Below, piece after piece: positions 251 to 30,395 of a DNA stretch of 32,000 nucleotides (position 1 is the stretch's first letter; each line of letters begins with the position of its first letter). The DNA is from Candidatus Iainarchaeum sp. Its GTDB lineage: Archaea > Iainarchaeota > Iainarchaeia > Iainarchaeales > CSSED10-239. Below the pieces are notes generated by a model. It was not told the origin of the DNA. It made no database searches and was given only the letters and a program-made list of their open reading frames with translations. The position numbers and the translations under genes were made by a program. The stretch is taken from contig JBBISB010000002.1 of NCBI GenBank assembly GCA_037441475.1, positions 1 through 32,000 of the forward strand, read 5' to 3'.

Positions 251-2164
251 ATGAAAACAAAAATAAAATTTCCAGATGGATCAATAAAAGAAATAGACTC
301 TGGAAAAACAGCTGAAGAAGTAATAAGAGAAGAAATTGGTGAAGGATTATTAAACGCATCAATAGCTGTAAAAATAAATAATGATATTAAAGACTTAACA
401 ACTCCTATAACGACAAATTGTGATTTTAAAGTACTTACAACAAAAGATATTGAAGCAAAGGAAGTGTTATGGCATAGTTCAGCACACATCTTAGCTTATG
501 CCATACAAAAACTATATCCTAACATTAAACTTACAATAGGTCCTGCCATAGAAAATGGTTTCTACTATGATATAGACATGGATGTTTCAATAACAGAAGA
601 AGATTTTGAAAAAATAGAAAAAGAAGCAGAAAAAATAATTTCTGAAAAAATACCTTTCATAAGACATGAAGTATCATACGATGATGCAAAAGAGATGTTT
701 AAAGATAACCCTTACAAAATAGAAATGATTGAAGAAATACAAAACATAAACGAACCTTTAACATACTATTCCTTAGCAGACTTTAAAGATCTTTGTAGAG
801 GTCCTCATCTTAAACACACAGGAAAAGTTAAAGCATTCAAAGTTTTAAAAACATCAGGTGCTTACTGGAGAGCAGACTCTAAAAATAAACAACTAAAAAG
901 AGTATACGGTATCTCCTTCTTTTCAAAAGAAGAAATGAAAGAATTTTTAATAAGACAAGAAGAAATTGCAAAAAGAGACCATAGAAAAATAGGAAGAGAA
1001 CTTGATCTTTATTCCTTCCAAGAAGAAGCACCAGGTATGCCTTTCTTTCATGATAAAGGTAGCTTTATATGGAATAAATTAGTTGAGTTTGTTTCAGAGA
1101 TTATGGAAGAAAGAGATTATGAGATTAATAAAACACCATTAATCCTTAACAGAAGTCTATGGCTTCAATCAGGACACTGGGATCACTATAAAGATAATAT
1201 GTATTTTACAAAGATAGATAACCAAGATTATGCAGTAAAACCAATGAACTGTCCTGGTAACATCTTAATCTACAAAGCACACCAATATTCTTATAGAGAC
1301 CTACCTATAAGAGCAGGAGAGTTTGGGCTAGTACATAGACATGAACTTTCAGGTGCTCTTTCTGGTCTTTTCAGAGTAAGAGCTTTCACTCAAGATGATG
1401 CACATGTCTTTTGTACTCCTGAGCAATTAAAGGAAGAGATTAAAGACTTAATTGATTTTATGGATGTTGTTTATAAAACATTTAACTTCTCTTACAGTAT
1501 GGAACTTTCAACAAAACCAGAAAAGGTAATGGGTGATCCTAAGGTATGGGAGATGGCAGAAAAAACTTTAGAGGAAGTTTTAAAAGAAATGAAAAAAGAA
1601 TATAAACTAAACCATGGCGATGGTGCTTTCTATGGTCCTAAAATAGACTTCCATATAACAGATGTTATTGGTAGAAAGTGGCAATGTGGAACCATACAAC
1701 TTGACTTTCAAATGCCTGAAAAGTTTGATTTAACTTATGAAGCTGCAGATAATACTAAAAAAAGACCAATCATGCTTCATAGAGCAGTTCTTGGAAGTGT
1801 TGAAAGGTTTATGGGTAATTTAGTTGAACATTTTGCAGGTAAATTCCCTCTTTGGATATCCCCTATGCAAGTAATTATCCTTCCAATAGCTGATAGACAC
1901 AACGAGTATGCAGAAAACTTAAGGAAGATGCTTAAAAAGAATGGGTTTAGAGCAAAGGTTAACCAAAAGGCAGAGACTATGAATAAAAAGATAAGGTCTG
2001 CACAGCTTGAAAAAATCAACTACATTTTAGTTATTGGAGATCAAGAGCAAGAGCACCAAACAATTAATGTAAGAACAAGGGATGAAAAGATCTTAGGTGA
2101 AATGAAGTTATCTGACCTTATGGAAGAAATGAAGCAAGAAGTTTTATCAAAAGAGATTAAATAA
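251..2164 (+). CDS. thrS: Threonyl-tRNA synthetase, full-length bacterial-type architecture
   Basis: 637-aa ORF. N-terminal TGS-like region, editing-domain HxxxH (WHSSAHILAYA), class II motifs (FRVRAFTQDDAHVF; GSVERFMGNLVEHFAGKFPLWISP) and a C-terminal anticodon-binding region. AGGAG about 12 nt upstream of the ATG. TAA stop. Confidence 0.95.
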   Translation: MKTKIKFPDGSIKEIDSGKTAEEVIREEIGEGLLNASIAVKINNDIKDLTTPITTNCDFKVLTTKDIEAKEVLWHSSAHILAYAIQKLYPNIKLTIGPAIENGFYYDIDMDVSITEEDFEKIEKEAEKIISEKIPFIRHEVSYDDAKEMFKDNPYKIEMIEEIQNINEPLTYYSLADFKDLCRGPHLKHTGKVKAFKVLKTSGAYWRADSKNKQLKRVYGISFFSKEEMKEFLIRQEEIAKRDHRKIGRELDLYSFQEEAPGMPFFHDKGSFIWNKLVEFVSEIMEERDYEINKTPLILNRSLWLQSGHWDHYKDNMYFTKIDNQDYAVKPMNCPGNILIYKAHQYSYRDLPIRAGEFGLVHRHELSGALSGLFRVRAFTQDDAHVFCTPEQLKEEIKDLIDFMDVVYKTFNFSYSMELSTKPEKVMGDPKVWEMAEKTLEEVLKEMKKEYKLNHGDGAFYGPKIDFHITDVIGRKWQCGTIQLDFQMPEKFDLTYEAADNTKKRPIMLHRAVLGSVERFMGNLVEHFAGKFPLWISPMQVIILPIADRHNEYAENLRKMLKKNGFRAKVNQKAETMNKKIRSAQLEKINYILVIGDQEQEHQTINVRTRDEKILGEMKLSDLMEEMKQEVLSKEIK

Positions 2165-3720: not shown

Positions 3721-3802
3721 TGCAGGGTACAGGATTCGAACCTGTGAAGCACTAAGCAATGGATTTTGAGTCCATCCCCTTTGACCGCTCGGGAAACCCT
3801 GC
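3721..3802 (-). tRNA. tRNA-Leu (anticodon CAA)
   Basis: Reverse complement folds as a cloverleaf: acceptor GCAGGGT/ACCCTGC, anticodon stem ATGGA/TCCAT with loop CT-CAA-AA, long variable arm, T arm ACAGG-TTCGAAT-CCTGT, discriminator A. No encoded CCA. Confidence 0.9.
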
Positions 3803-3865: not shown

Positions 3866-4921
3866 TTACATGATAGTTGACTTAAAGATATTTAAAAAAA
3901 AGTAAATTAAACAAGAATAATTTAAAATCAAGTGATCAATTATTCTTATTTTTACTTCATCATCATTTTTAACTCTACAACTACCACCAATAGGGAAAGT
4001 AAAGACTGGGTTGGTGTGACCAAAATCAATATTTGCAATGACAGGAATATTTTTTAACTCTTCTTTTGTTTTAATAATTTCTTTAAGTCTTTCTATAGTT
4101 ATCTTAGAATCATTTTCAAATCTTCCAATTACAATACCTTTTATTTTATCAAAACCTTTTTGCTGAGTTAAAGATACTAAGTGTCTATCAAAATTATAAG
4201 AAAGATCAGTTCCTTCTTGATCATCTTCTAAGAAAAGTATTTTATTATTAAATTTAGGCATATACTCTGTTCCATTTAATAAATAGAAAGTACCTACATT
4301 ACCACCTATAATAGTTCAGTTCATGTTACCTGGATTAATAACAACAGGCCCAGTATTTTTATATAATTCTTTTTTAGAATCTTTTTTATACCAACTTTCT
4401 TCATAATAATAATTAGATGGTTTTATATCTATAGGTTTATTTTCAAATAAACATTTTTTAAAATAATCAACAGTATATTCATCTTTTTTTTCTAAACCAA
4501 AAACTGCAAAGTTCGGACCATAATAAGTAACCATTCCAGTTTTTGCATAAATTGCATTTAAGAGGACAGATATATCTGAAAAACCACACAATATCTTTTT
4601 GTTTTTTTTAATTAAACTAAAATCAATATATTTTAAAAGTTGGTTTGTATTAAATCATCCACATGACGTTAAAATACCTTTTACAGACTTATCTAAAAAA
4701 GCATCATTAATATCAGATATTCTAGAAGAAATACTTGATGATTGAAAACCATCTATTTCAAGTGCATTTTTTGAATAACTTACATTTAATCCAAGATTGG
4801 TTAGAATATTTTGAGCATTAACTCTGAAGTTATAAGGCATAACTGATAAACTTTTAGATGGAGAAATAATTCTTAAGTTATCTCCTGTTTTAAGCTTTTG
4901 TGGAATTAACATTACTATCAC
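3866..4921 (-). pseudogene. S66 LD-carboxypeptidase / MccF-like serine peptidase, one frame interrupted by two in-frame TGA codons
   Basis: ORF-track fragments 4655..4921, 4316..4591 and 3866..4261 share one frame. TGA at 4655-4657 and 4316-4318. Family motifs: CGFSDIS (Ser nucleophile), IIGGNVGT, LFLEDD (Glu), DFGHTNP (His). GAGGTGAT lies upstream of ATG 4912, the likely true start; the ORF track used GTG 4921. Confidence 0.8.
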
Positions 4922-5084
4922 CTCTATAAATATTATAAATGGTGGTTTTTAAAAGAATTAGTGGGAAAAATTTATAAAGATAATTAAATTTTTAAATATA
5001 GTTATTATAGATATTTAACTTAATATTTAAGATATAAAGAAATATTTAGAAAGAAGTAAAAAAAGATAAATCTCTTTATAGATA

Positions 5085-5522
5085 TTATCTTCCTAAATTT
5101 TTATTTGTACAAATATTATTTTCACAGATACAATCTTCTGGAGAATAAGCTGAATTTAATCTATATTCTAAGGTACATGCAAGCTCAGTATTAACCTTAT
5201 AAGTAGATTCAAACTTTTTATTTATACAAGAGGTAGGATGACATTGAGAAGATAAAGGAATACAATCTTCATTTACTTGACATACAAACTGTTTTGAAGG
5301 AACAGTTACCCATGGCCCATTGAATTGTTTTCCTGTATTTGTTTCACATATCTTTGGATTTGAGTTTATTACTTTAAAACCAGCTTCAACACATTCTTCA
5401 AAACTATTTATATTTTGAGTAGAAGCAATTATTTTTTTAGGGGTAGAAAAAGGCATGAATATAGCTACTAAGACAATTAATAATATTAAACTACTTACTA
5501 TTAGAATTAACTTAATATTCAA
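5085..5522 (-). CDS. Small secreted or membrane-anchored cysteine-rich protein
   Basis: 145-aa ORF. TTG start with GGGGGT 6 nt upstream. N-terminal hydrophobic segment LILIVSSLILLIVLVAIF. 10 Cys in the mature part. Confidence 0.6.
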   Translation of the reverse strand: MNIKLILIVSSLILLIVLVAIFMPFSTPKKIIASTQNINSFEECVEAGFKVINSNPKICETNTGKQFNGPWVTVPSKQFVCQVNEDCIPLSSQCHPTSCINKKFESTYKVNTELACTLEYRLNSAYSPEDCICENNICTNKNLGR

Positions 5523-18576: not shown

Positions 18577-19311
18577 TTACTTCTTCTTTTTATCATCTTT
18601 CTTTGCAGGTGCAGCCTTTGCATCTTTACCAGCAGGTGCTTTTGCATCCTTTCCAGGAGCGACTTTACCTTTTGCAGCCTTAAGTTCTTGAGCTTTTGCT
18701 TCTTCAGCTTTCTTCTCTTCTTCTGCCATTGCTGCAAGTTTTTTTCTTTTCTTTGTAGTTCCAACAGACTTAATTGTTTCTTTATTTTCTTCAATTACAA
18801 CTTTCATTTTACATGGAAGTTTTGAATTAAGTCTTTCGAAAACTTTTTTAACAAATTCAACATTTGCTTCATCTACTAAAACACTAAATAATTTTTGATT
18901 AGCTCTTACTCTTGCAGCTATTCCAACTACCTTACCAAAAGGGCATTGACTCATACCTTGCTGTATTCTGTCGGCTTTTGCACCTTGAGCTTGTTTGTTT
19001 TCTCTTAAAAAGAATTGTGGATAAACTCTTAACTTCATATAGAAGTTTTGAGCTGTTAATTTCTTGTTTAAGTTTCTAACAACTGTTGTTCTTACTGATT
19101 CAAGAGCAGTATCTCTTACTTGTATTTTTTCTGAAGTAACATAATGTACAACATGTGTGTATGCTCTTTCTCCAAAACCCATGTGGTATTGTCTTACCTT
19201 TGAGTTTGGAACACCACCAATGTAGTTTTTCCTATGTACTTTTTTTGCAATCCTTGTATAAGCTCTTTTATTGAACTTTGGATTGTAACAATGTCCTGGT
19301 CTTACACCCAT
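18577..19311 (-). CDS. rpl10e: Ribosomal protein L10e (uL16, archaeal/eukaryotic type) with a Lys/Ala-rich C-terminal extension
   Basis: 244 aa. MGVRPGHCYNPKFNKRAYTRIAKK...GVPNSKVRQYHMG. AGGTGA 7 nt upstream. The tail is KKRKKLAAMAEEEKKAEEAKAQELKAAKGKVAPGKDAKAPAGKDAKAAPAKKDDKKKK. Confidence 0.9.
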   Translation of the reverse strand: MGVRPGHCYNPKFNKRAYTRIAKKVHRKNYIGGVPNSKVRQYHMGFGERAYTHVVHYVTSEKIQVRDTALESVRTTVVRNLNKKLTAQNFYMKLRVYPQFFLRENKQAQGAKADRIQQGMSQCPFGKVVGIAARVRANQKLFSVLVDEANVEFVKKVFERLNSKLPCKMKVVIEENKETIKSVGTTKKRKKLAAMAEEEKKAEEAKAQELKAAKGKVAPGKDAKAPAGKDAKAAPAKKDDKKKK

Positions 19312-23706: not shown

Positions 23707-24852
23707 TTAATTATACTCATAGAAAATTATAAAATCTATTCCATTCTTTGAAATTTCAAAATCTAAAAAGATTGCATCTGAAACAAAAATGGCATACTCT
23801 GCACAAGAAAAGCCACATTCTTTATTTTCAAAAGATAAAAAATATAAAGTATCACTATATGTTTTATCTAAAATATATCTAGAACTAATGGATTTTAAGG
23901 CAATTATGTTGCTTATTTTAATTGTATTTAAATTGTTTGCATTCATGTAAGTTATTGTGTCAATTAAAACCTTCTCTGCATCTGGCTTTGGAACAGTTAT
24001 TTGAAAAATTAAAACAATTATTACAAAGAAAACTAAAATATATTTTATAAAATTAAAACTACTCTCTTCCTTTATAGAAAACATTATAAAAGAAGTAAAG
24101 ATGGATAACAAAATAGCTGTATACAACAAGAAATTATCAAAGAAGATTCTTGTAATTAACTCTCCATCTCCATACCACAAAAAATTATAACCAAAGATAA
24201 TGTTTACAAAAAGAATAACTATTAAAAATATAAAAAATAAAACTATAGAAAGATAATAAAGGTTTAAAAAATATTTTTTCTTTTGAGACTCTTCTTTAAA
24301 AACAGTTAAGTCTTTTGAAATATTAAAAAGAACTCTGTCAAGAGGAACAGAACTATCTTTAAAAGTTTTTAAAAGTATTAAGGTATGGTTTATAATTGGA
24401 CTTTTAATAGTTTCATTAACATTTAATAAGGCATTTTCAAAATCATCTCCCCATGAGACTCTATTAGCTATCCTCTTTATTTCAGTATCAATTGAACCAT
24501 AGGTGTTTGATTTTGTGATATTTGTAAGAGACAAAGATATATTTTTTGTTATCTTATACTCTCTTGATAAATCTTGAAGAAAATAATTAAAAGAAGTTTC
24601 AATTGCCTTTTTTTTAAAATATTTAATAATAAACTCTAAAAAGAAACCAACAAAACTAACCAAAACACCAAAGAAAAACAAAAAATAATAAAGTTTTGTA
24701 TGTATAATATATTTATTTGCTATATAAACAATTAAAAGACCTGAAAGTATACTTGCAAGTATTAATATCTGATACTCATAATTGTATATAAACATCTTAA
24801 ACTTGATGTTAAACTTTTCAAATAAATTTTTATTATTTAAAACCATATTCAC
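23707..24852 (-). CDS. Type IV pilus platform protein, single T2SS-F-like domain with a C-terminal extra domain, locus B
   Basis: 381 aa. TM pair, cytoplasmic helical domain (FLQDLSREYKITKNISLSLTNI...WGDDFENALLNV), more TMs, then a tail of about 95 aa. Confidence 0.5.
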   Translation of the reverse strand: MNMVLNNKNLFEKFNIKFKMFIYNYEYQILILASILSGLLIVYIANKYIIHTKLYYFLFFFGVLVSFVGFFLEFIIKYFKKKAIETSFNYFLQDLSREYKITKNISLSLTNITKSNTYGSIDTEIKRIANRVSWGDDFENALLNVNETIKSPIINHTLILLKTFKDSSVPLDRVLFNISKDLTVFKEESQKKKYFLNLYYLSIVLFFIFLIVILFVNIIFGYNFLWYGDGELITRIFFDNFLLYTAILLSIFTSFIMFSIKEESSFNFIKYILVFFVIIVLIFQITVPKPDAEKVLIDTITYMNANNLNTIKISNIIALKSISSRYILDKTYSDTLYFLSFENKECGFSCAEYAIFVSDAIFLDFEISKNGIDFIIFYEYN

Positions 24853-24865
24853 ACATTCTTAAACA

Positions 24866-25708
24866 TTATTTATATAAGATAATAACTAATATAAACTCAA
24901 TGATTCCAAAAATTATTGCGAAAACCAATAAAGCATCCTTAAGATAAAGATAATCTGAAAAGGTAAAAAATAATATTACTAAAATTATTATAAATAAGAA
25001 AAATAAAAAAATATACATCAAAAATAAAAGATTGATCCTGCTTTTTTTCTGTTCACTAATCTCCCTTCTTGATTGTTCTAAACTTGAGAGGAAATCAGAA
25101 ACAACTTGATTTAAGTTTTCTTTCTTATCAATAACATCTATAAGCTTTCTAAAGAAATTTTTTTCAATCTCAGAATAAGTTTCAGAGATTATTGATTTAA
25201 AGGTATCTCTTAAATTATGGTTGTAATTTGTTAAAGCCATTATCTTTTTAGCTTCTTTACTTAAAAGATCATTATTTTCTAAATTTTCAAAAACCTTTAA
25301 GACATCTTCAATAGTTAAGTTTTCATCTTTTAAAACAGAAAGGTGTCTTATAGTTCTATTAAACTCATCTCCAATCTCTTTTTTAATTGCATCAAGTAAA
25401 TAGTAAGGATATTTATAAAGTAATAAAAAGATCATGAAAGAAAAGGTAAAAGCAATAAAGACAGTTATAAAGAAACTAAAAATATTAAACAAGATATTTA
25501 ACTTAATCATTAAAAAAATTAAAGCAAATTCAATGACTATTAAAAAGAATAGAGCAATAAATAAAATATTGGAGATATAGCTAACAGAGTCTTCATTAAT
25601 ACCAGTATAGTCAAGTACTTTTTCAAAACTTTTTAAGTTATCTTTAAACATTAAGACCAGGTCTTTGAAAAAGAAACTAGATATTTGTGTTAAAAATTTA
25701 CTGAACAT
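24866..25708 (-). CDS. Type IV pilus platform protein, single T2SS-F-like domain, locus B
   Basis: 280 aa. TMs flank a cytoplasmic helical domain (EIGDEFNRTIRHLSVLKDENLTIEDVLKVFENL...). Confidence 0.5.
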   Translation of the reverse strand: MFSKFLTQISSFFFKDLVLMFKDNLKSFEKVLDYTGINEDSVSYISNILFIALFFLIVIEFALIFLMIKLNILFNIFSFFITVFIAFTFSFMIFLLLYKYPYYLLDAIKKEIGDEFNRTIRHLSVLKDENLTIEDVLKVFENLENNDLLSKEAKKIMALTNYNHNLRDTFKSIISETYSEIEKNFFRKLIDVIDKKENLNQVVSDFLSSLEQSRREISEQKKSRINLLFLMYIFLFFLFIIILVILFFTFSDYLYLKDALLVFAIIFGIIEFILVIILYK

Positions 25709-25715
25709 ACATATA

Positions 25716-28688
25716 TCACTTTATATCAAGCTTTTTAAAAAGATTGTCTTTTTCAAAATAGTATTGAGATACAATACTATTGAAGTCCTTATAACTATAA
25801 ATCTTAGAATCTCTCATCCATCTCATTATTTTTTTTCTCTTTAAAAAATCAACGACATTTATTGACGAGGATAAAAGATTAATTGCATAAACATCCTCTG
25901 AAAGGTCAATATCAACAACCAAACTTTCTTTTTTATTAACAATTTCTCTAATATTCATTATTTGTAAGACTTCTTTTATACCTTGGTTTATTCTTTTAAG
26001 TTCAATAACTATTGACTTTTGATTTACTACTTTTAATTGATCTAAAAATTGATCTGCAACATCAGGGTTTATTGAAAATAAATTTATATTATACCATGAA
26101 ACATCAAAAACATCTTTTGAAAACTCATCAACAACTATGTAGTCTGGTTTTTGAGAGATTGTTTGTTCAATCATTAACTTCTTATTTAAATCTTGGTTAC
26201 TTGTAAAAACTCTATTAACCCATTCTTTCTGTGGAAGTTTAAAACGATCGTAAGCCTGAACTGTAATAATCTTTTTTTCAGGTAAAAATAATAAAATAGA
26301 GTTAAAGATAATAAATGAATCATCAGTATCTATTATCACAACTTTGTAGTTTTCTGCAATTGCAGACCAGATATATGAAAACACATCAACAGACCCAACA
26401 CTGGTGTTGATTAAAGAAACTGGGGTTAATGGTTCTTCTAAATATTTTTTAATTACAAAAGAAGACCCTTTACTACTAGTATCTCCAACAGAATAAAGAC
26501 CTTCCACCTTATAACCGTTAGGAAGATAACCGTCAATAACAGGATGTGCTTGAGTGATGTAAAGACCCATATTTTTTGTAAGTATTAAAACAAATTTATT
26601 GAGTTCATTGATATCTGGAAAACTAATGTTTGTTTTTAAAAGTCCATACTCTACATGCATGATTGAAAGAGTAGATTTTTCTCCTGAACAACTAACTTCT
26701 AGAATCTTTTTATCTTGTAAAAGGTTTGTTAAGATACCAAGACCAAAGAACTCTCTTTGTATAAACTTAAGATAAAGTTTTTGTTGAAGATTACCAAGCC
26801 TGTAAGAAAGTTTATCTAAGGAAATATCATATATCTTTTCTATATATTTATTTAAACTATGCTTATCTCCATTAAAAGAATAATAGTTTTTGTCAATGGT
26901 GTTGAAAAAAATTCTTTTTAACTGTTGATATTCTTTTTCTTGTTCAGCACTTAAATCAGGTTGAACAAGGTTATAAAATAAACCTAACTCTTGATCATAG
27001 TAAATGGTAACATATGTAAAATCATCTATAGAGTATTTATCATAGATTGTTGTAATATCTTTTTTAAAAGTTAAAATAGGGTCATTGTATACTAGTGAGG
27101 AAAATAAACTATTATCACTTGAAAGTTCTTCTTGATATATTTCTTTATTTATTTTAATAGGATTTTTACCTGCATCTTTTGGTAGTATATAATCAATTCC
27201 TTTATCTCTTAGATCTTTAAACTTTTCTGCAATTAAATCCTTTTTAACTCTAGGGTTTTCTTTTATTCTTTTTACAGTCGTTGTTTCAACTATTTGAGGA
27301 GTTTCAATTATTTGTTTTATACCTAACTGTAATTTTTGATCATCCTCTGGAGTAAACTTAATTTCTGAAAAGGTTTTTTGTGTGCTTGCTTGTTCTTCAT
27401 TTATTTTTTGACTAAAAGAATCAATATTAAATTTTTCTTCTTTTTTTAAAGGAACCCTAGTAATATTTTTCTTAATTTCTTCATTTAATTTTACTTGGTT
27501 GTTATCCATTACAAAGTTAGGTATCTTTTCAGAAGCTTCATTTGTTTTAACAATAGATACCATTTTTGAATCATTATTAAGATCAGTTATTTTTTCCTGC
27601 TCAGAGTTTACTTGAGAAATGAAATTTCTATCAATAACATCCTCCATATTTGAAGAATCGTCTTCAATTGCATACATATCAGGAACATCAATTTCTTCTA
27701 AAAGATCATACTTAAGAGATTCTTTTTTAATGTTATAATCTATTTTATCAACAGCAGAAGTTTGTTTTTCTTTAAAAGATGTTTCTTTTACAGAAGTTAC
27801 TGTTTCTTTCTTATGTTCTGTAAGTGCGTCTATTTTTGAATAAAGATTTTTAACATTATATGAGTTAAACTCAACTTTTTTCATCTTTGGCTTATCATCT
27901 AAGAAAGAAAAGACTTCTAAAAAAACATCTTCATTTAATTTATCAGTTTTTTTATTTAATTCTTCTAAAAGAGAATCAACATTTTCACTCTTATTTTTAA
28001 AAGACTCATAAAAATCATCTTTAGAATTATTTTTTAAAGGACTTTCTTTAAAAGGTTGAGAAACTTCTTTTAAAATTTCTTTTAAAATATTCATTGATTT
28101 ATCATTATTAATTGAATAATCTAAGGATAGGTCTTTTTTAATAACCTTGTCAATAACAGAAATGTTTTTTTCAGGAGATACAAAAGAAGAAATATTCTTT
28201 TGAGATTTATTATTTAAGGAAACTTTATTTTGAACAGATGTAGTTGATTTTACTCTTGAGCGCTTATTTAAAGAAATATCTAATAACTCTTTATGTTCAG
28301 GTATCATTAATTGATTATTTGAAAAAAACTTACTATGTTCTTCTATCATTAGGCGTGGTTTTGTTTCTTCTTTAAGAATAAGATCTTCTTTAGGAGTTAG
28401 AGAAGTTGCTTCCTTTACAATAATTTTTTCTTTAACCTTTTCTTTTTCAAAAGGATTAAATGGTTTTTTATGTTCAGAAATGTCAGAAACGTCTATTTTC
28501 AAGTCTACTTTTTTTACACCTTGATATTCCAAAGGAACTGTTTTAGTTTCTTTTTTATAAGGTAAAGAAACATCCATTTTTTCTAATCTATTTACTTTAG
28601 ATTCGGTTTGATATTTTTGAGTGATACTTTTAGATAGAGGAATTCTTTTAATTACCTTAAAATCTAAAGATCCATCTATTTCTGACAT
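25716..28688 (-). CDS. FlaI/TadA-like protein with a degenerate Walker A (probable pseudo-ATPase) and an N-terminal low-complexity extension of about 540 aa
   Basis: 990 aa. The C-terminal half is collinear with FlaI: FYNLVQPDLSAEQEKEY, REFFGLGILTNLLQDKKILEVSC, GSSFVIKKYLEEPLTPVSLI. The Walker A position reads IIDTDDSFII (DTDDSFII at 26307-26330) instead of GxxGSGKT, and the His box reads FSINP. Walker B-like KPDYIVVDEF is retained. AGGTAG upstream of the ATG. Confidence 0.65.
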   Translation of the reverse strand: MSEIDGSLDFKVIKRIPLSKSITQKYQTESKVNRLEKMDVSLPYKKETKTVPLEYQGVKKVDLKIDVSDISEHKKPFNPFEKEKVKEKIIVKEATSLTPKEDLILKEETKPRLMIEEHSKFFSNNQLMIPEHKELLDISLNKRSRVKSTTSVQNKVSLNNKSQKNISSFVSPEKNISVIDKVIKKDLSLDYSINNDKSMNILKEILKEVSQPFKESPLKNNSKDDFYESFKNKSENVDSLLEELNKKTDKLNEDVFLEVFSFLDDKPKMKKVEFNSYNVKNLYSKIDALTEHKKETVTSVKETSFKEKQTSAVDKIDYNIKKESLKYDLLEEIDVPDMYAIEDDSSNMEDVIDRNFISQVNSEQEKITDLNNDSKMVSIVKTNEASEKIPNFVMDNNQVKLNEEIKKNITRVPLKKEEKFNIDSFSQKINEEQASTQKTFSEIKFTPEDDQKLQLGIKQIIETPQIVETTTVKRIKENPRVKKDLIAEKFKDLRDKGIDYILPKDAGKNPIKINKEIYQEELSSDNSLFSSLVYNDPILTFKKDITTIYDKYSIDDFTYVTIYYDQELGLFYNLVQPDLSAEQEKEYQQLKRIFFNTIDKNYYSFNGDKHSLNKYIEKIYDISLDKLSYRLGNLQQKLYLKFIQREFFGLGILTNLLQDKKILEVSCSGEKSTLSIMHVEYGLLKTNISFPDINELNKFVLILTKNMGLYITQAHPVIDGYLPNGYKVEGLYSVGDTSSKGSSFVIKKYLEEPLTPVSLINTSVGSVDVFSYIWSAIAENYKVVIIDTDDSFIIFNSILLFLPEKKIITVQAYDRFKLPQKEWVNRVFTSNQDLNKKLMIEQTISQKPDYIVVDEFSKDVFDVSWYNINLFSINPDVADQFLDQLKVVNQKSIVIELKRINQGIKEVLQIMNIREIVNKKESLVVDIDLSEDVYAINLLSSSINVVDFLKRKKIMRWMRDSKIYSYKDFNSIVSQYYFEKDNLFKKLDIK

Positions 28689-28755
28689 ATATCTACTACC
28701 TTGATTAAAATATATTTTAATATATATAGATATAAGTCATTATATTTATAAATCT

Positions 28756-29487
28756 TTATATAAACTGATTTAAGATAACTGACATTAAATCAAAAATATA
28801 TAAGAAGATTACAAGGATGTAACTAATAAAAATAAGGATAACAAAGGGAACTAAAGGAGAAACCCATACCTTTGAAACATTATTCTTTTTTGCAAAGTTC
28901 TTTAATAAAAGTATCTCTTTTTCAGGCTCTATGTTTGGAGCATAAATGATATTTGAAACTACCTTGTTGTTTTCTAAAGTTAATTTTTCTAAAGGAGTAT
29001 AGAATTTAGTAATTTTATTTAAAGATAAAGGGTATCCTAAAAACATTAGATAAAGGGATTTAAAAAAAGAAAATTTAGGATAATTTCTTTTAAAAACATT
29101 AAATAAGAATATAGATGTTGGAACCAATAAAGTTAAAAGTAAAGCAAAAAAGAAAACAAACATTGGAAAATAAATATTAAAGATATTAGTAAAAGACAAT
29201 GCCATTATTGTATATAAATCTCCCTCTCCGATATAAGTAAAATAACTTAATTTTCCAAGACCATAAAAGATTAATAAGAAAACAAAAGTAACAAATATTT
29301 GTAAAAAGTAAGCCCACCATAGAGAGGTGTTACTTTTAAAAATAAAAAAACCTAAATAAATTAGACTAACAATTGCAAGAACAAGTAAAGACATGATATT
29401 TATTTCACGATATTTAATGTCTTGATACGTAATATAAAGTAGAATAACTAAAGTAAATATAACTAATGGTAAATATAAAACATTCAT
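28756..29487 (-). CDS. A24-family prepilin/preflagellin peptidase (PibD/EppA/FlaK-like)
   Basis: 243 aa, polytopic. Two catalytic Asp contexts: YQDIKYREI and YIGEGDLYT. The start ATG overlaps the upstream gene's TGA as ATGA. Confidence 0.75.
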   Translation of the reverse strand: MNVLYLPLVIFTLVILLYITYQDIKYREINIMSLLVLAIVSLIYLGFFIFKSNTSLWWAYFLQIFVTFVFLLIFYGLGKLSYFTYIGEGDLYTIMALSFTNIFNIYFPMFVFFFALLLTLLVPTSIFLFNVFKRNYPKFSFFKSLYLMFLGYPLSLNKITKFYTPLEKLTLENNKVVSNIIYAPNIEPEKEILLLKNFAKKNNVSKVWVSPLVPFVILIFISYILVIFLYIFDLMSVILNQFI

Positions 29488-30395
29488 ATTGATCTCTTTG
29501 TAAGATACATTAAATCTTTGTAAGCTTTTGTTTTTGTTTTCCTTGCAGTTGATCTTTCAAAAAGATTATCTGTATAGATGCCAGGAGGACCTACAGACAT
29601 TATTCTTTTAAATTTAATTCTATCTAAGATAGTTTTATTTTTAACTTTATCATCTGAAGAATCTATCAAGGACTTTGGTAGATCTAAAGTTATAATACCA
29701 GATCCAATTTCACCTACATTATAACTACCAGAGCCTGCTGTTATAAACTTTGCAGATTTTCCAAGCTTAATGGCAGCTTCAAACCTATAAACAACATCAT
29801 AACTTTTTTGATCTATCTTGTGGGTTATATACTCACTGAAGTTTGAAAGCCCAATTGTTCTAAAAAATCTATGAAGTTCTAAATAATCTAAGACATCTCT
29901 AACTTTCCTTAAAAAGAAAGAATCATACATATAATAAGAAAGATAACCTATTGTCCCTGTATATGCCTCAACACCAATCTTCTTTTCTTTAATTAATTTT
30001 TCAAGTCTATCTAAACCTAATATATATGTTGCTGAGTTTGAGATAAGACCAAAAGGATGAGCTATTGTTATCATATAATTTTTTTTAGAACAAAAATCAA
30101 TTAATCTTCTTAAAGCAACTTTATTTTCATAAAGTATAGAATAGTTATACATCTCTTCATCAGAAGAGTAGACTAAGACCTCTCCTGAGTCTGTCATTAT
30201 CTTTATTCCAGGTATTAATATTTTATCTTTAGGTTTATATTTTAAAAGATCTAAGTATGCTTTCTTTGGATCTAAATAATTATATTCAGTTATGGCTGTA
30301 CCTAAAAGATTATTTTCACAAACTATTTTCCAATATTTCTTTACAGACTCTTTGTTTTTATGTAAGTGAGTGTGCAAATCTATGTTATAAAGCAT
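29484..30395 (-). CDS. PHP-domain-like metal-dependent phosphoesterase
   Basis: 303 aa. N-terminal IDLHTHLH and a later AHPFG. By-eye assignment only. First gene of the locus B operon. Confidence 0.45.
   Translation of the reverse strand: MLYNIDLHTHLHKNKESVKKYWKIVCENNLLGTAITEYNYLDPKKAYLDLLKYKPKDKILIPGIKIMTDSGEVLVYSSDEEMYNYSILYENKVALRRLIDFCSKKNYMITIAHPFGLISNSATYILGLDRLEKLIKEKKIGVEAYTGTIGYLSYYMYDSFFLRKVRDVLDYLELHRFFRTIGLSNFSEYITHKIDQKSYDVVYRFEAAIKLGKSAKFITAGSGSYNVGEIGSGIITLDLPKSLIDSSDDKVKNKTILDRIKFKRIMSVGPPGIYTDNLFERSTARKTKTKAYKDLMYLTKRSI

What the first reader, a model, noticed from the sequence alone, without database searches (positions are those of the whole stretch)
3866..4921. Bacterial-type S66 LD-carboxypeptidase is intact except for two in-frame TGA codons, both at conserved glycine positions
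Three ORF-track fragments form one frame. Reading through gives ...KGILTSCG-[TGA 4655-4657]-FNTNQLLKYIDF... and ...VINPGNMN-[TGA 4316-4318]-TIIGGNVGTFYLLNGTEYMP.... From my memory of S66 sequences (P. aeruginosa/E. coli LdcA, MccF), the first TGA falls on the second Gly of the GG(Y/F) motif. The second falls on the middle Gly of G-x3-G-x3-GGN. The Ser (GFSDIS), Glu (LFLEDD) and His (DFGHT) catalytic contexts survive, as do the SD and ATG, and there is no frameshift. Three explanations are possible. (a) Two very recent GGA->TGA nonsense mutations. (b) Recent transfer from a TGA=Gly (genetic code 25) bacterium such as Gracilibacteria or Absconditabacteria, which would leave the gene unreadable in this host. 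(c) Local read-through. A peptidoglycan-peptide or microcin-C-type peptidase in an archaeal context already suggests horizontal acquisition.
Basis: partly seen in the sequence, partly recalled or inferred. Interest (0 to 1): 0.7.

Follow-up and report, generated by a model that had tools for sequence, protein, structure and literature searches.

The report
Recently broken S66 peptidase pseudogene
An MccF/LdcA-type serine peptidase gene in a small AT-rich archaeon was inactivated very recently by two Gly-to-stop mutations plus loss of its own stop codon; it is an ordinary young pseudogene, not a sign of an alternative genetic code.

Summary
One S66 peptidase reading frame (minus strand, ATG 4912) carries in-frame TGA at 4655-4657 and 4316-4318. 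Both fall on columns that are Gly in 120/120 and 117/120 homologues.

The exotic readings fail.
- Three close relatives carry the same gene in the same neighbourhood, at 98.2%, about 90% and about 82-88% nucleotide identity. All have GGA at both sites and a stop directly after ...IIDH.
The ancestral TAG stop is now TTG, which adds 21 codons.
- TGA is a genuine stop in this lineage. Six of 32 ORFs end in it, two of these ends are conserved in a 94.6% relative, and 8,536 other codons hold 150 GGA and no internal TGA.
- The nearest more distant homologues are standard-code DPANN archaea and CPR bacteria (49-56%). A Gracilibacteria copy is only 41% identical.

A second gene in the window, a ferredoxin-fused pilus ATPase, is also broken, by a poly-A frameshift, a Gln-to-TAG change and radical replacements. 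Its derived changes are almost all G/C to A/T, which makes two GGA-to-TGA hits unremarkable (about 5%).

Verdict: a recent pseudogene of low interest.

The parts
3866..4912 (-). S66 (MccF/LdcA-family) serine peptidase pseudogene. ATG at 4912-4910, 327 ancestral codons, then a 21-codon run-on to TAA at 3866-3868.
   Evidence: Pfam PF02016 + PF17676; PDB 5usd/4e5s 1e-104; intact 327-aa orthologues P0123, P0124, P0001
4655..4657 (-). Nonsense codon 86, TGA derived from GGA (Gly, second G of GGFN). It lies upstream of the catalytic Ser112.
   Evidence: GGA in L032, L031 and L001; column is Gly 120/120
4316..4318 (-). Nonsense codon 199, TGA derived from GGA (Gly of G-T-I-I-G-G-N).
   Evidence: GGA in L032, L031 and L001; column is Gly 117/120
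3929..3931 (-). Lost stop codon: TTG here, TAG in L032 and L031, TGA in L001. All 120 aligned homologues end near this His.
4577..4579 (-). Codon for the catalytic Ser112 (GFSDIS), still intact. Glu229 (4226-4228) and His299 (4016-4018) are likewise intact.
   Evidence: motif positions; alignment to solved MccF-like structures
4918..4924 (-). GAGGTGA ribosome-binding-like site, identical in the relatives.
   Evidence: direct reading
3721..3802 (-). tRNA-Leu(CAA), the downstream neighbour. Its 5' part is at the same relative position at the contig ends of L001 and L032 (synteny marker).
5085..5522 (-). Upstream 145-aa Cys-rich predicted membrane/secreted protein. An orthologue sits directly upstream of the gene in L001, and its 3' end is present at the contig edge of L032 (synteny marker).
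10833..12589 (-). Second pseudogene in the window (context, not part of the finding): ferredoxin-fused FlaI/CpaF-type ATPase. It has a frameshift in the A8 run at 12117-12124 and a Gln->TAG change at 11187-11189.

Best explanation
The region is a very young pseudogene of a stand-alone MccF-like S66 serine peptidase, inherited vertically in a low-GC DPANN-type archaeon. Shown: on the branch leading to this genome, two GGA glycine codons each mutated G->T to TGA. The TAG stop mutated to TTG, and a few conservative replacements accrued. Sister strains keep an intact 327-aa gene. Inferred: translation ends at codon 86, before the Ser112-Glu229-His299 triad, so no active enzyme is made. After the first hit the remaining lesions accumulated neutrally, under the lineage's strong G/C->A/T mutation bias. 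The coincidence with conserved glycines arises because GGA is one of the few G/C-containing codons one step from a stop, and because most glycines in this fold are conserved.
For: (1) Polarised comparison with three orthologues (L032 at 98.2% nt, L031, L001) shows G86*, G199* and *328L are all window-derived. (2) Synteny: same 145-aa gene upstream in L001, with its 3' end at the L032 contig edge, and the start of the same tRNA-Leu downstream in both. L031 aligns with the window through both flanks at 89.6%. (3) dN/dS against L001 is 0.13 and uniform before, between and after the TGAs. This indicates long purifying selection and hence recent breakage. (4) On the short terminal branches the window has 6-7 non-synonymous or disabling changes against 3-4 synonymous. 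The sister L032 has 0-1 against 5-6 (Fisher p about 0.03-0.13 depending on how ambiguous sites are assigned). (5) TGA is a real stop here. Six of 32 ORFs end in TGA. There is no internal TGA in 8,536 codons of 28 other genes, which hold 150 GGA. The TGA ends of the 990-aa and 303-aa genes are conserved in a 94.6% relative. (6) The lesions cluster: 3 in this gene, at least 2 in the Fer4-ATPase gene, and none in about 28 others. That is the pattern of pseudogenes, not of random errors. (7) The three fragment proteins (85, 91, 131 aa) are on record from both an NCBI contig (98,019 bp) and a Logan assembly. (8) Derived changes in the neighbouring pseudogene are 7 of 8 G/C->A/T. Restricting nonsense paths to G/C->A/T gives 9/39 for GGA->TGA, so about 5% for both hits (counts).
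Against: Under a uniform mutation model only 9 of 162 nonsense paths are GGA->TGA, so two such hits have probability 0.3%. Even with the observed bias it is a roughly 5% event. The window-derived amino-acid replacements (V25M, D319E, L320V) are conservative and at variable columns, so relaxed selection rests mainly on the three disabling changes. No reads were inspected. The two assemblies may derive from the same sequencing run.
Confidence: 0.86

Rival explanations
1. Sequence artefact or minority-allele consensus: the organism really has an intact gene, and the three changes are read or assembly errors or a rare strain variant that happened to be assembled.
For: No read-level data could be examined. 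G->T is the classic oxidative-damage artefact, and the other broken gene has a homopolymer (A8 against A9) indel.
Against: The same three fragments occur in two assemblies, NCBI and Logan, as do the ATPase fragments. The overlap between the window and Logan contig L002 is 100% identical over 3,310 nt. Errors would scatter over genes, yet five lesions sit in 2 of about 30 genes. No intact near-identical (>98%) copy from the same sample surfaced in the protein search.
Confidence: 0.07
2. The gene is still functional because TGA is decoded, at least partly, as glycine in this archaeon (an incipient code-25-like reassignment or efficient local read-through).
For: Both TGAs replace GGA at near-invariant Gly columns. 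The catalytic motifs, RBS and frame are preserved. dN/dS downstream of the TGAs is as low as upstream.
Against: The low dN/dS reflects the long shared history, since dS to L001 is 0.48 whereas the TGAs arose within the last 1.7% of divergence (17 differences in the 984-nt CDS against L032). There is no internal TGA in 8,536 other codons despite 150 GGA, nor in 5 kb of extra sequence from the same organism (L002). Six of 32 genes stop at TGA, and two of those stops are positionally conserved in a relative. None of the window's three tRNAs has a UCA anticodon. The third lesion is loss of a TAG stop, which no TGA recoding explains. A neighbouring gene is broken by TAG and a frameshift.
Confidence: 0.03
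3. Recent horizontal transfer of the gene from a TGA=Gly (code 25) Gracilibacteria or Absconditabacteria donor, unreadable in the new host.
For: TGA falls at Gly positions. The family is shared between CPR bacteria and DPANN archaea.
Against: Orthologues at 98%, about 90% and about 82-88% nt identity sit in the same genomic neighbourhood with GGA at both codons, so the TGAs arose in situ. The gene's GC content and flanks match the host. The only Gracilibacteria homologue retrieved from GTDB representatives is 41% identical, against 49-53% for standard-code CPR/DPANN genomes. It has no TGA at these columns.
Confidence: 0.01

Closest known systems
Stand-alone MccF-like S66 peptidases of Firmicutes (B. 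anthracis BA_5613, PDB 5usd/4e5s; Listeria Lmo1638, PDB 4h1h)
   Same: Full-length alignment (residues 2-327) at E = 1e-104 and 3e-93. Same two-domain S66 architecture and the same Ser/Glu/His motif contexts. The B. anthracis enzyme hydrolyses peptidyl- and aminoacyl-adenylates of the microcin C type (PMC8323819).
   Different: The window copy is interrupted twice and has lost its stop. It is archaeal (DPANN) rather than firmicute. Its substrate is untested.
E. coli MccF microcin C7 immunity peptidase (PDB 3tla/3tlc) and LdcA murein tetrapeptide LD-carboxypeptidases (PDB 5z01, 1zl0)
   Same: Same MEROPS S66 family and fold.
   Different: Much more distant: 4e-35 for E. coli MccF, 4e-15 (C-terminal part only) for E. 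coli LdcA and 4e-06 for P. aeruginosa LdcA. The 'LD-carboxypeptidase' label is therefore a family name, not a demonstrated activity. There is no mcc cluster nearby.
Intact S66 genes annotated in DPANN archaea and CPR bacteria (Woesearchaeota, Pacearchaeota, Aenigmarchaeota, Nanoarchaeota, Parcubacteria, Moranbacteria)
   Same: 49-56% identity, the same 325-328 aa length, ending in ...H.
   Different: Those copies are intact. This one is a pseudogene.
Genetic code 25 genes (TGA = Gly) of Gracilibacteria/Absconditabacteria
   Same: TGA sits where homologues have Gly.
   Different: Here TGA is otherwise a stop, the TGAs are confined to one gene, they arose from GGA within the last <2% of divergence, and they are accompanied by a stop-codon loss.

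Membership tests
MEROPS S66 / Pfam Peptidase_S66 + Peptidase_S66C | Both domain models matched above the gathering score | tested here: met
   PF02016 96.9 bits (cut-off 25) and PF17676 100.6 bits (cut-off 23.7)
MEROPS S66 / Pfam Peptidase_S66 + Peptidase_S66C | Ser-Glu-His catalytic triad in conserved motif contexts | tested here: met
   GFS112D, LE229DD and GH299T align with the same motifs of 5usd/4h1h. Identity of the catalytic residues is from knowledge of the family (S118 in E. coli MccF).
MEROPS S66 / Pfam Peptidase_S66 + Peptidase_S66C | Uninterrupted coding sequence able to yield the enzyme | tested here: not met
   Stops at codons 86 and 199, and the natural stop is lost. It is a pseudogene of the family, not a functional member.
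MccF-type (peptidyl/aminoacyl-nucleotide hydrolase) subgroup as opposed to LdcA | Closer in sequence to characterised MccF proteins than to LdcA | tested here: met
   1e-104 (BaMccF-like), 2e-43 and 4e-35 (MccF) against 4e-15 and 4e-06 (LdcA)
MccF-type (peptidyl/aminoacyl-nucleotide hydrolase) subgroup as opposed to LdcA | Hydrolysis of microcin C-like compounds | not testable with these tools
   Biochemical assay needed; the ancestral intact allele (P0123) would be the protein to test.
Gene written in genetic code 25 (TGA = Gly) | In-frame TGA at Gly columns | tested here: met
   2 of 2 TGAs at Gly columns
Gene written in genetic code 25 (TGA = Gly) | TGA not used as a terminator, and sense TGA spread over many genes of the genome | tested here: not met
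   6 of 32 ORFs end in TGA, there are 0 internal TGAs in 8,536 other codons, and TGA ends are conserved in relative L033
Gene written in genetic code 25 (TGA = Gly) | Nearest relatives in code-25 lineages, or TGA ancestral at the sites | tested here: not met
   GGA in all three close orthologues; Gracilibacteria homologue 41% against 49-56% for others
Gene written in genetic code 25 (TGA = Gly) | tRNA-Gly with anticodon UCA in the genome | tested here: inconclusive
   None among the three tRNAs of the window. The rest of the genome was not available.
Unitary pseudogene | Disabling lesions, with intact orthologues at the same locus in close relatives | tested here: met
Unitary pseudogene | Excess of non-synonymous or disabling changes on the pseudogene branch | tested here: inconclusive
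   6-7:3-4 against 0-1:5-6, Fisher p = 0.03-0.13. The numbers are small and the replacements conservative.
Unitary pseudogene | No full-length protein produced | not testable with these tools
   Needs proteomics or an expression test.

The most novel reading that the evidence does not exclude
This DPANN archaeon is at the very first step of a TGA->Gly reassignment, or has efficient context-specific TGA suppression. The S66 gene would then still be expressed with Gly (or another residue) at both sites. This would be the first such case in Archaea.
Probability: 0.02. Interest if true: 0.85.

Novelty: already known. Interest (0 to 1): 0.12.

Why it matters
It matters mostly as a caution. Two TGA codons on invariant glycines look like a code-25 signature. 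Here they are only what AT-biased mutation does to GGA codons once a gene is no longer needed. A modest positive point: together with the neighbouring broken ferredoxin-ATPase gene, the locus catches gene loss in progress in a DPANN-type archaeon, with intact alleles still circulating in strains 2-10% diverged. Someone studying genome reduction, or the role of MccF-like peptidases in ultra-small archaea, could use these as natural knock-outs. It does not bear on genetic-code evolution.

Tried and rejected
(1) Finding the source contig and more of the genome by exact protein look-up. ThrRS, the 297-aa, 310-aa and 145-aa neighbours and two S66 fragments were 'not on record'. Only the right-end gene worked, giving 5 kb of extra sequence (L002).

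(2) An exact-pattern scan of metagenome contigs around TGA site 1 found nothing.

(3) The GTDB representative scan did not contain the source genome. It gave only 34-53% homologues.

(4) Selenocysteine was rejected. Sec replaces Cys, not invariant Gly. Rfam found no RNA element, only three tRNAs.

(5) A code-4 (TGA = Trp) reading was briefly suggested by relative protein P0132, which shows W where the window's 990-aa gene stops. The DNA has TGA there too, and the Logan gene caller had simply used table 4.

(6) The Gracilibacteria homologue (L026) was inspected for TGA at the two columns. It has none, and that copy is itself frameshifted.

(7) Literature searches for S66 genes or pseudogenes in DPANN gave nothing specific.

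Full report
**Observation**

On the minus strand, the frame from the ATG at 4912 to the TAA at 3866-3868 is one continuous reading frame. Exactly two internal stops interrupt it, both TGA, at 4655-4657 (codon 86) and 4316-4318 (codon 199). There is no frameshift.

The read-through product matches both S66 Pfam domains well above threshold. It aligns over residues 2-327 with the B. anthracis BA_5613 and Listeria Lmo1638 MccF-like crystal structures at 1e-104 and 3e-93. E. coli MccF follows at 4e-35, and the LdcA enzymes reach only 4e-15 to 4e-06.

In a MAFFT alignment with the 120 best database homologues, the first TGA column is Gly in 120/120 (GG[F/Y]N). The second is Gly in 117/120 (G-x-I-I-G-G-N). 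The Ser112, Glu229 and His299 motif contexts and a GAGGTGA ribosome-binding-like site are intact.

**Context**

The window has about 26% GC. It carries archaeal markers:
- an archaeal-type A24 prepilin peptidase C-terminal domain;
- FlaI/CpaF-type ATPases and split T2SSF membrane proteins;
- an L16p/L10e-family ribosomal protein gene;
- a beta-CASP nuclease, with NMD3 just beyond the right end.

It is a DPANN-type archaeon. S66 genes are common in such genomes and in CPR bacteria. Named hits at 51-54% identity include Woesearchaeota, Pacearchaeota, Aenigmarchaeota, Nanoarchaeota, Parcubacteria and Moranbacteria. GTDB representatives give the same mix at 49-53%, and a Gracilibacteria copy reaches only 41%.

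**Is TGA a sense codon in this organism? No.**

- Six of 32 long ORFs terminate in TGA. Reading through them adds only 6-11 codons before the next stop, or in one case runs into the next gene.
- Twenty-eight other genes (8,536 codons) contain 150 GGA codons and not one internal TGA.
- Five further kilobases of the same organism (L002, 100% identical in the overlap) also have none.
- In a relative at 94.6% nucleotide identity (L033), the TGA ends of the 990-aa and 303-aa genes are at the same positions.
- One database protein from that relative shows a Trp there. This is only because the Logan gene caller applied table 4 to that contig.

**Where did the TGAs come from?**

The protein search and a cluster look-up revealed three close orthologues, and I fetched their DNA:
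- L032: JGI metagenome 3300051198, 98.2% identical over 1,306 nt.
- L031: Logan SRR14932604, aligning with the window through both flanks at about 90%.
- L001: Logan SRR34068995, about 82% over 1.6 kb and 88% within the CDS.

L001 has the same 145-aa gene upstream and the start of the same tRNA-Leu(CAA) downstream. The short L032 contig carries the 3' end of that gene and the start of that tRNA at its edges.

All three encode an intact 327-aa protein with GGA at both positions and a stop codon immediately after ...IIDH. That stop is TAG in L032 and L031, and TGA in L001. The window has TTG there.

Polarising the 17 CDS differences between the window and L032 with the two outgroups gives the following:
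- Window-derived: G86* (G->T), G199* (G->T), *328L (TAG->TTG), V25M, L320V, probably D319E, and three synonymous changes.
- L032-derived: 5-6 synonymous changes and at most one replacement.

The contrast gives Fisher p = 0.03-0.13, depending on how ambiguous sites are assigned. The replacements are conservative and at variable columns. The case for relaxed constraint therefore rests mainly on the three disabling changes.

Against the more distant L001, dN/dS is 0.13 and is uniform across the three segments. The gene was under purifying selection for nearly all of its history and broke within the last <2% of sequence divergence.

**How surprising is 'both on GGA'?**

Of 162 single-nucleotide routes to a stop in the ancestral sequence, 9 are GGA->TGA. 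That gives 0.3% for two hits under uniform mutation.

The lineage's mutation is far from uniform. In the neighbouring pseudogene, 7 of 8 window-derived amino-acid-changing substitutions are G/C->A/T. This is as expected for a 26%-GC genome. Restricted to G/C->A/T, the routes number 39, so GGA->TGA is 23% of them and two hits about 5%. If only G:C->T:A transversions are counted, the figure is 9%.

That the glycines are conserved adds little, because most glycines in this family are. The pattern is a mild coincidence, not a signal.

**Second broken gene**

Homologues of the ATPase at 10833-12589 are 584-587-aa proteins with an N-terminal 4Fe-4S ferredoxin domain fused to a FlaI/CpaF ATPase. A relative, P0260, is 96.8% identical to the repaired window translation (566 of 585 residues). 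It is intact, reads ...ETKENKKKYIVF... and has Gln in ...TFHSQTANE....

The window differs in several ways:
- It has an A8 run (12117-12124) where three Lys codons (A9) are needed, splitting the gene into a 165-aa Fer4 ORF and a start-less ATPase frame.
- It has TAG (11187-11189) at the Gln.
- It has radical replacements at residues invariant in five homologues: C91F in the KCDLC cluster motif and G131W.

These fragments are also on record from both NCBI and Logan assemblies.

Five or more lesions are concentrated in 2 of about 30 genes, with none elsewhere. This is what real pseudogenes look like. Random sequencing errors would be spread across genes.

**Mechanism**

- Shown: the lesions, their direction, their recency, and the standard use of TGA.
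- Inferred: translation ends at codon 86, before the nucleophile Ser112, so no enzyme is made. Any rare double read-through would insert a non-Gly residue at near-invariant positions and carry a hydrophobic 21-residue tail.
- Ancestral function (inferred): judged from similarity to the B. anthracis enzyme, which hydrolyses peptidyl- and aminoacyl-adenylates and confers microcin C resistance (PMC8323819), it was more probably detoxification or turnover of aminoacyl-nucleotide-type compounds than murein recycling. This is inference only.

**Comparison and novelty**

This is a pseudogenised member of a well-known family, in a lineage where intact members are already annotated. The code-25 transfer reading is refuted. 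The recoding or read-through reading is contradicted by every test possible within the window, and I leave it about 2-3%. An artefact or minority-allele explanation cannot be fully excluded without reads (about 7%).

Interest is low.

Noticed in passing
window 10833-12589 (-): A ferredoxin-fused FlaI/CpaF-type pilus ATPase is a pseudogene. It has an A8-for-A9 frameshift at 12117-12124, a Gln->TAG change at 11187-11189, and C91F and G131W at invariant residues. It is intact (585 aa) in a relative (P0260) that is 96.8% identical to the repaired translation. A poly-A frameshift could in principle be rescued by transcriptional slippage, but the TAG argues for decay.
   Followed up: yes
L033 10001-13027 and 8294-9226 (Logan SRR14932604): Database proteins P0132 (1008 aa) and the 310-aa neighbour were called with translation table 4. 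A genuine TGA stop is therefore rendered as Trp and the proteins are extended by 6-7 residues. Low-GC archaeal contigs in this protein collection can carry such read-through artefacts.
   Followed up: yes
window 251-2164 (+): The window's ThrRS clusters at >=90% identity with a 345-aa partial ThrRS labelled 'Candidatus Moranbacteria bacterium' (NCU42712.1) on a 1,038-bp contig. Given the archaeal context here, that short contig may be mis-binned.
   Followed up: no
window 3866-4912 and 10833-12589: Window-derived changes in both pseudogenes are dominated by G/C->A/T. Several are coding-strand G->T (GGA->TGA twice, TGT->TTT, GGG->TGG). Both genes lie on the minus strand, so this may reflect strand-biased oxidative-damage-type mutation.
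   Followed up: partly
L026 about 10001-10974 (Gracilibacteria MAG JAAUSE010000002.1): The Gracilibacteria S66 homologue changes frame about 290 codons in, under both code 11 and code 25. The C-terminal GHT motif is in another frame, so this copy is itself frameshifted or mis-assembled.
   Followed up: no
window 9302-12589 and 23707-30395: There are two separate pilus/archaellum-like gene sets. One has the Fer4-ATPase and two single-domain T2SSF genes. The other has a 990-aa protein without Pfam hits, two T2SSF genes and an archaeal A24 prepilin peptidase. Only the first set carries the broken ATPase.
   Followed up: no
window 18577-19311 (-): The L16p/L10e-family ribosomal protein ORF is 244 aa, but the Pfam match covers only residues 23-172. 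It therefore has an unexplained C-terminal extension of about 70 aa, or the start or stop is mis-set.
   Followed up: no
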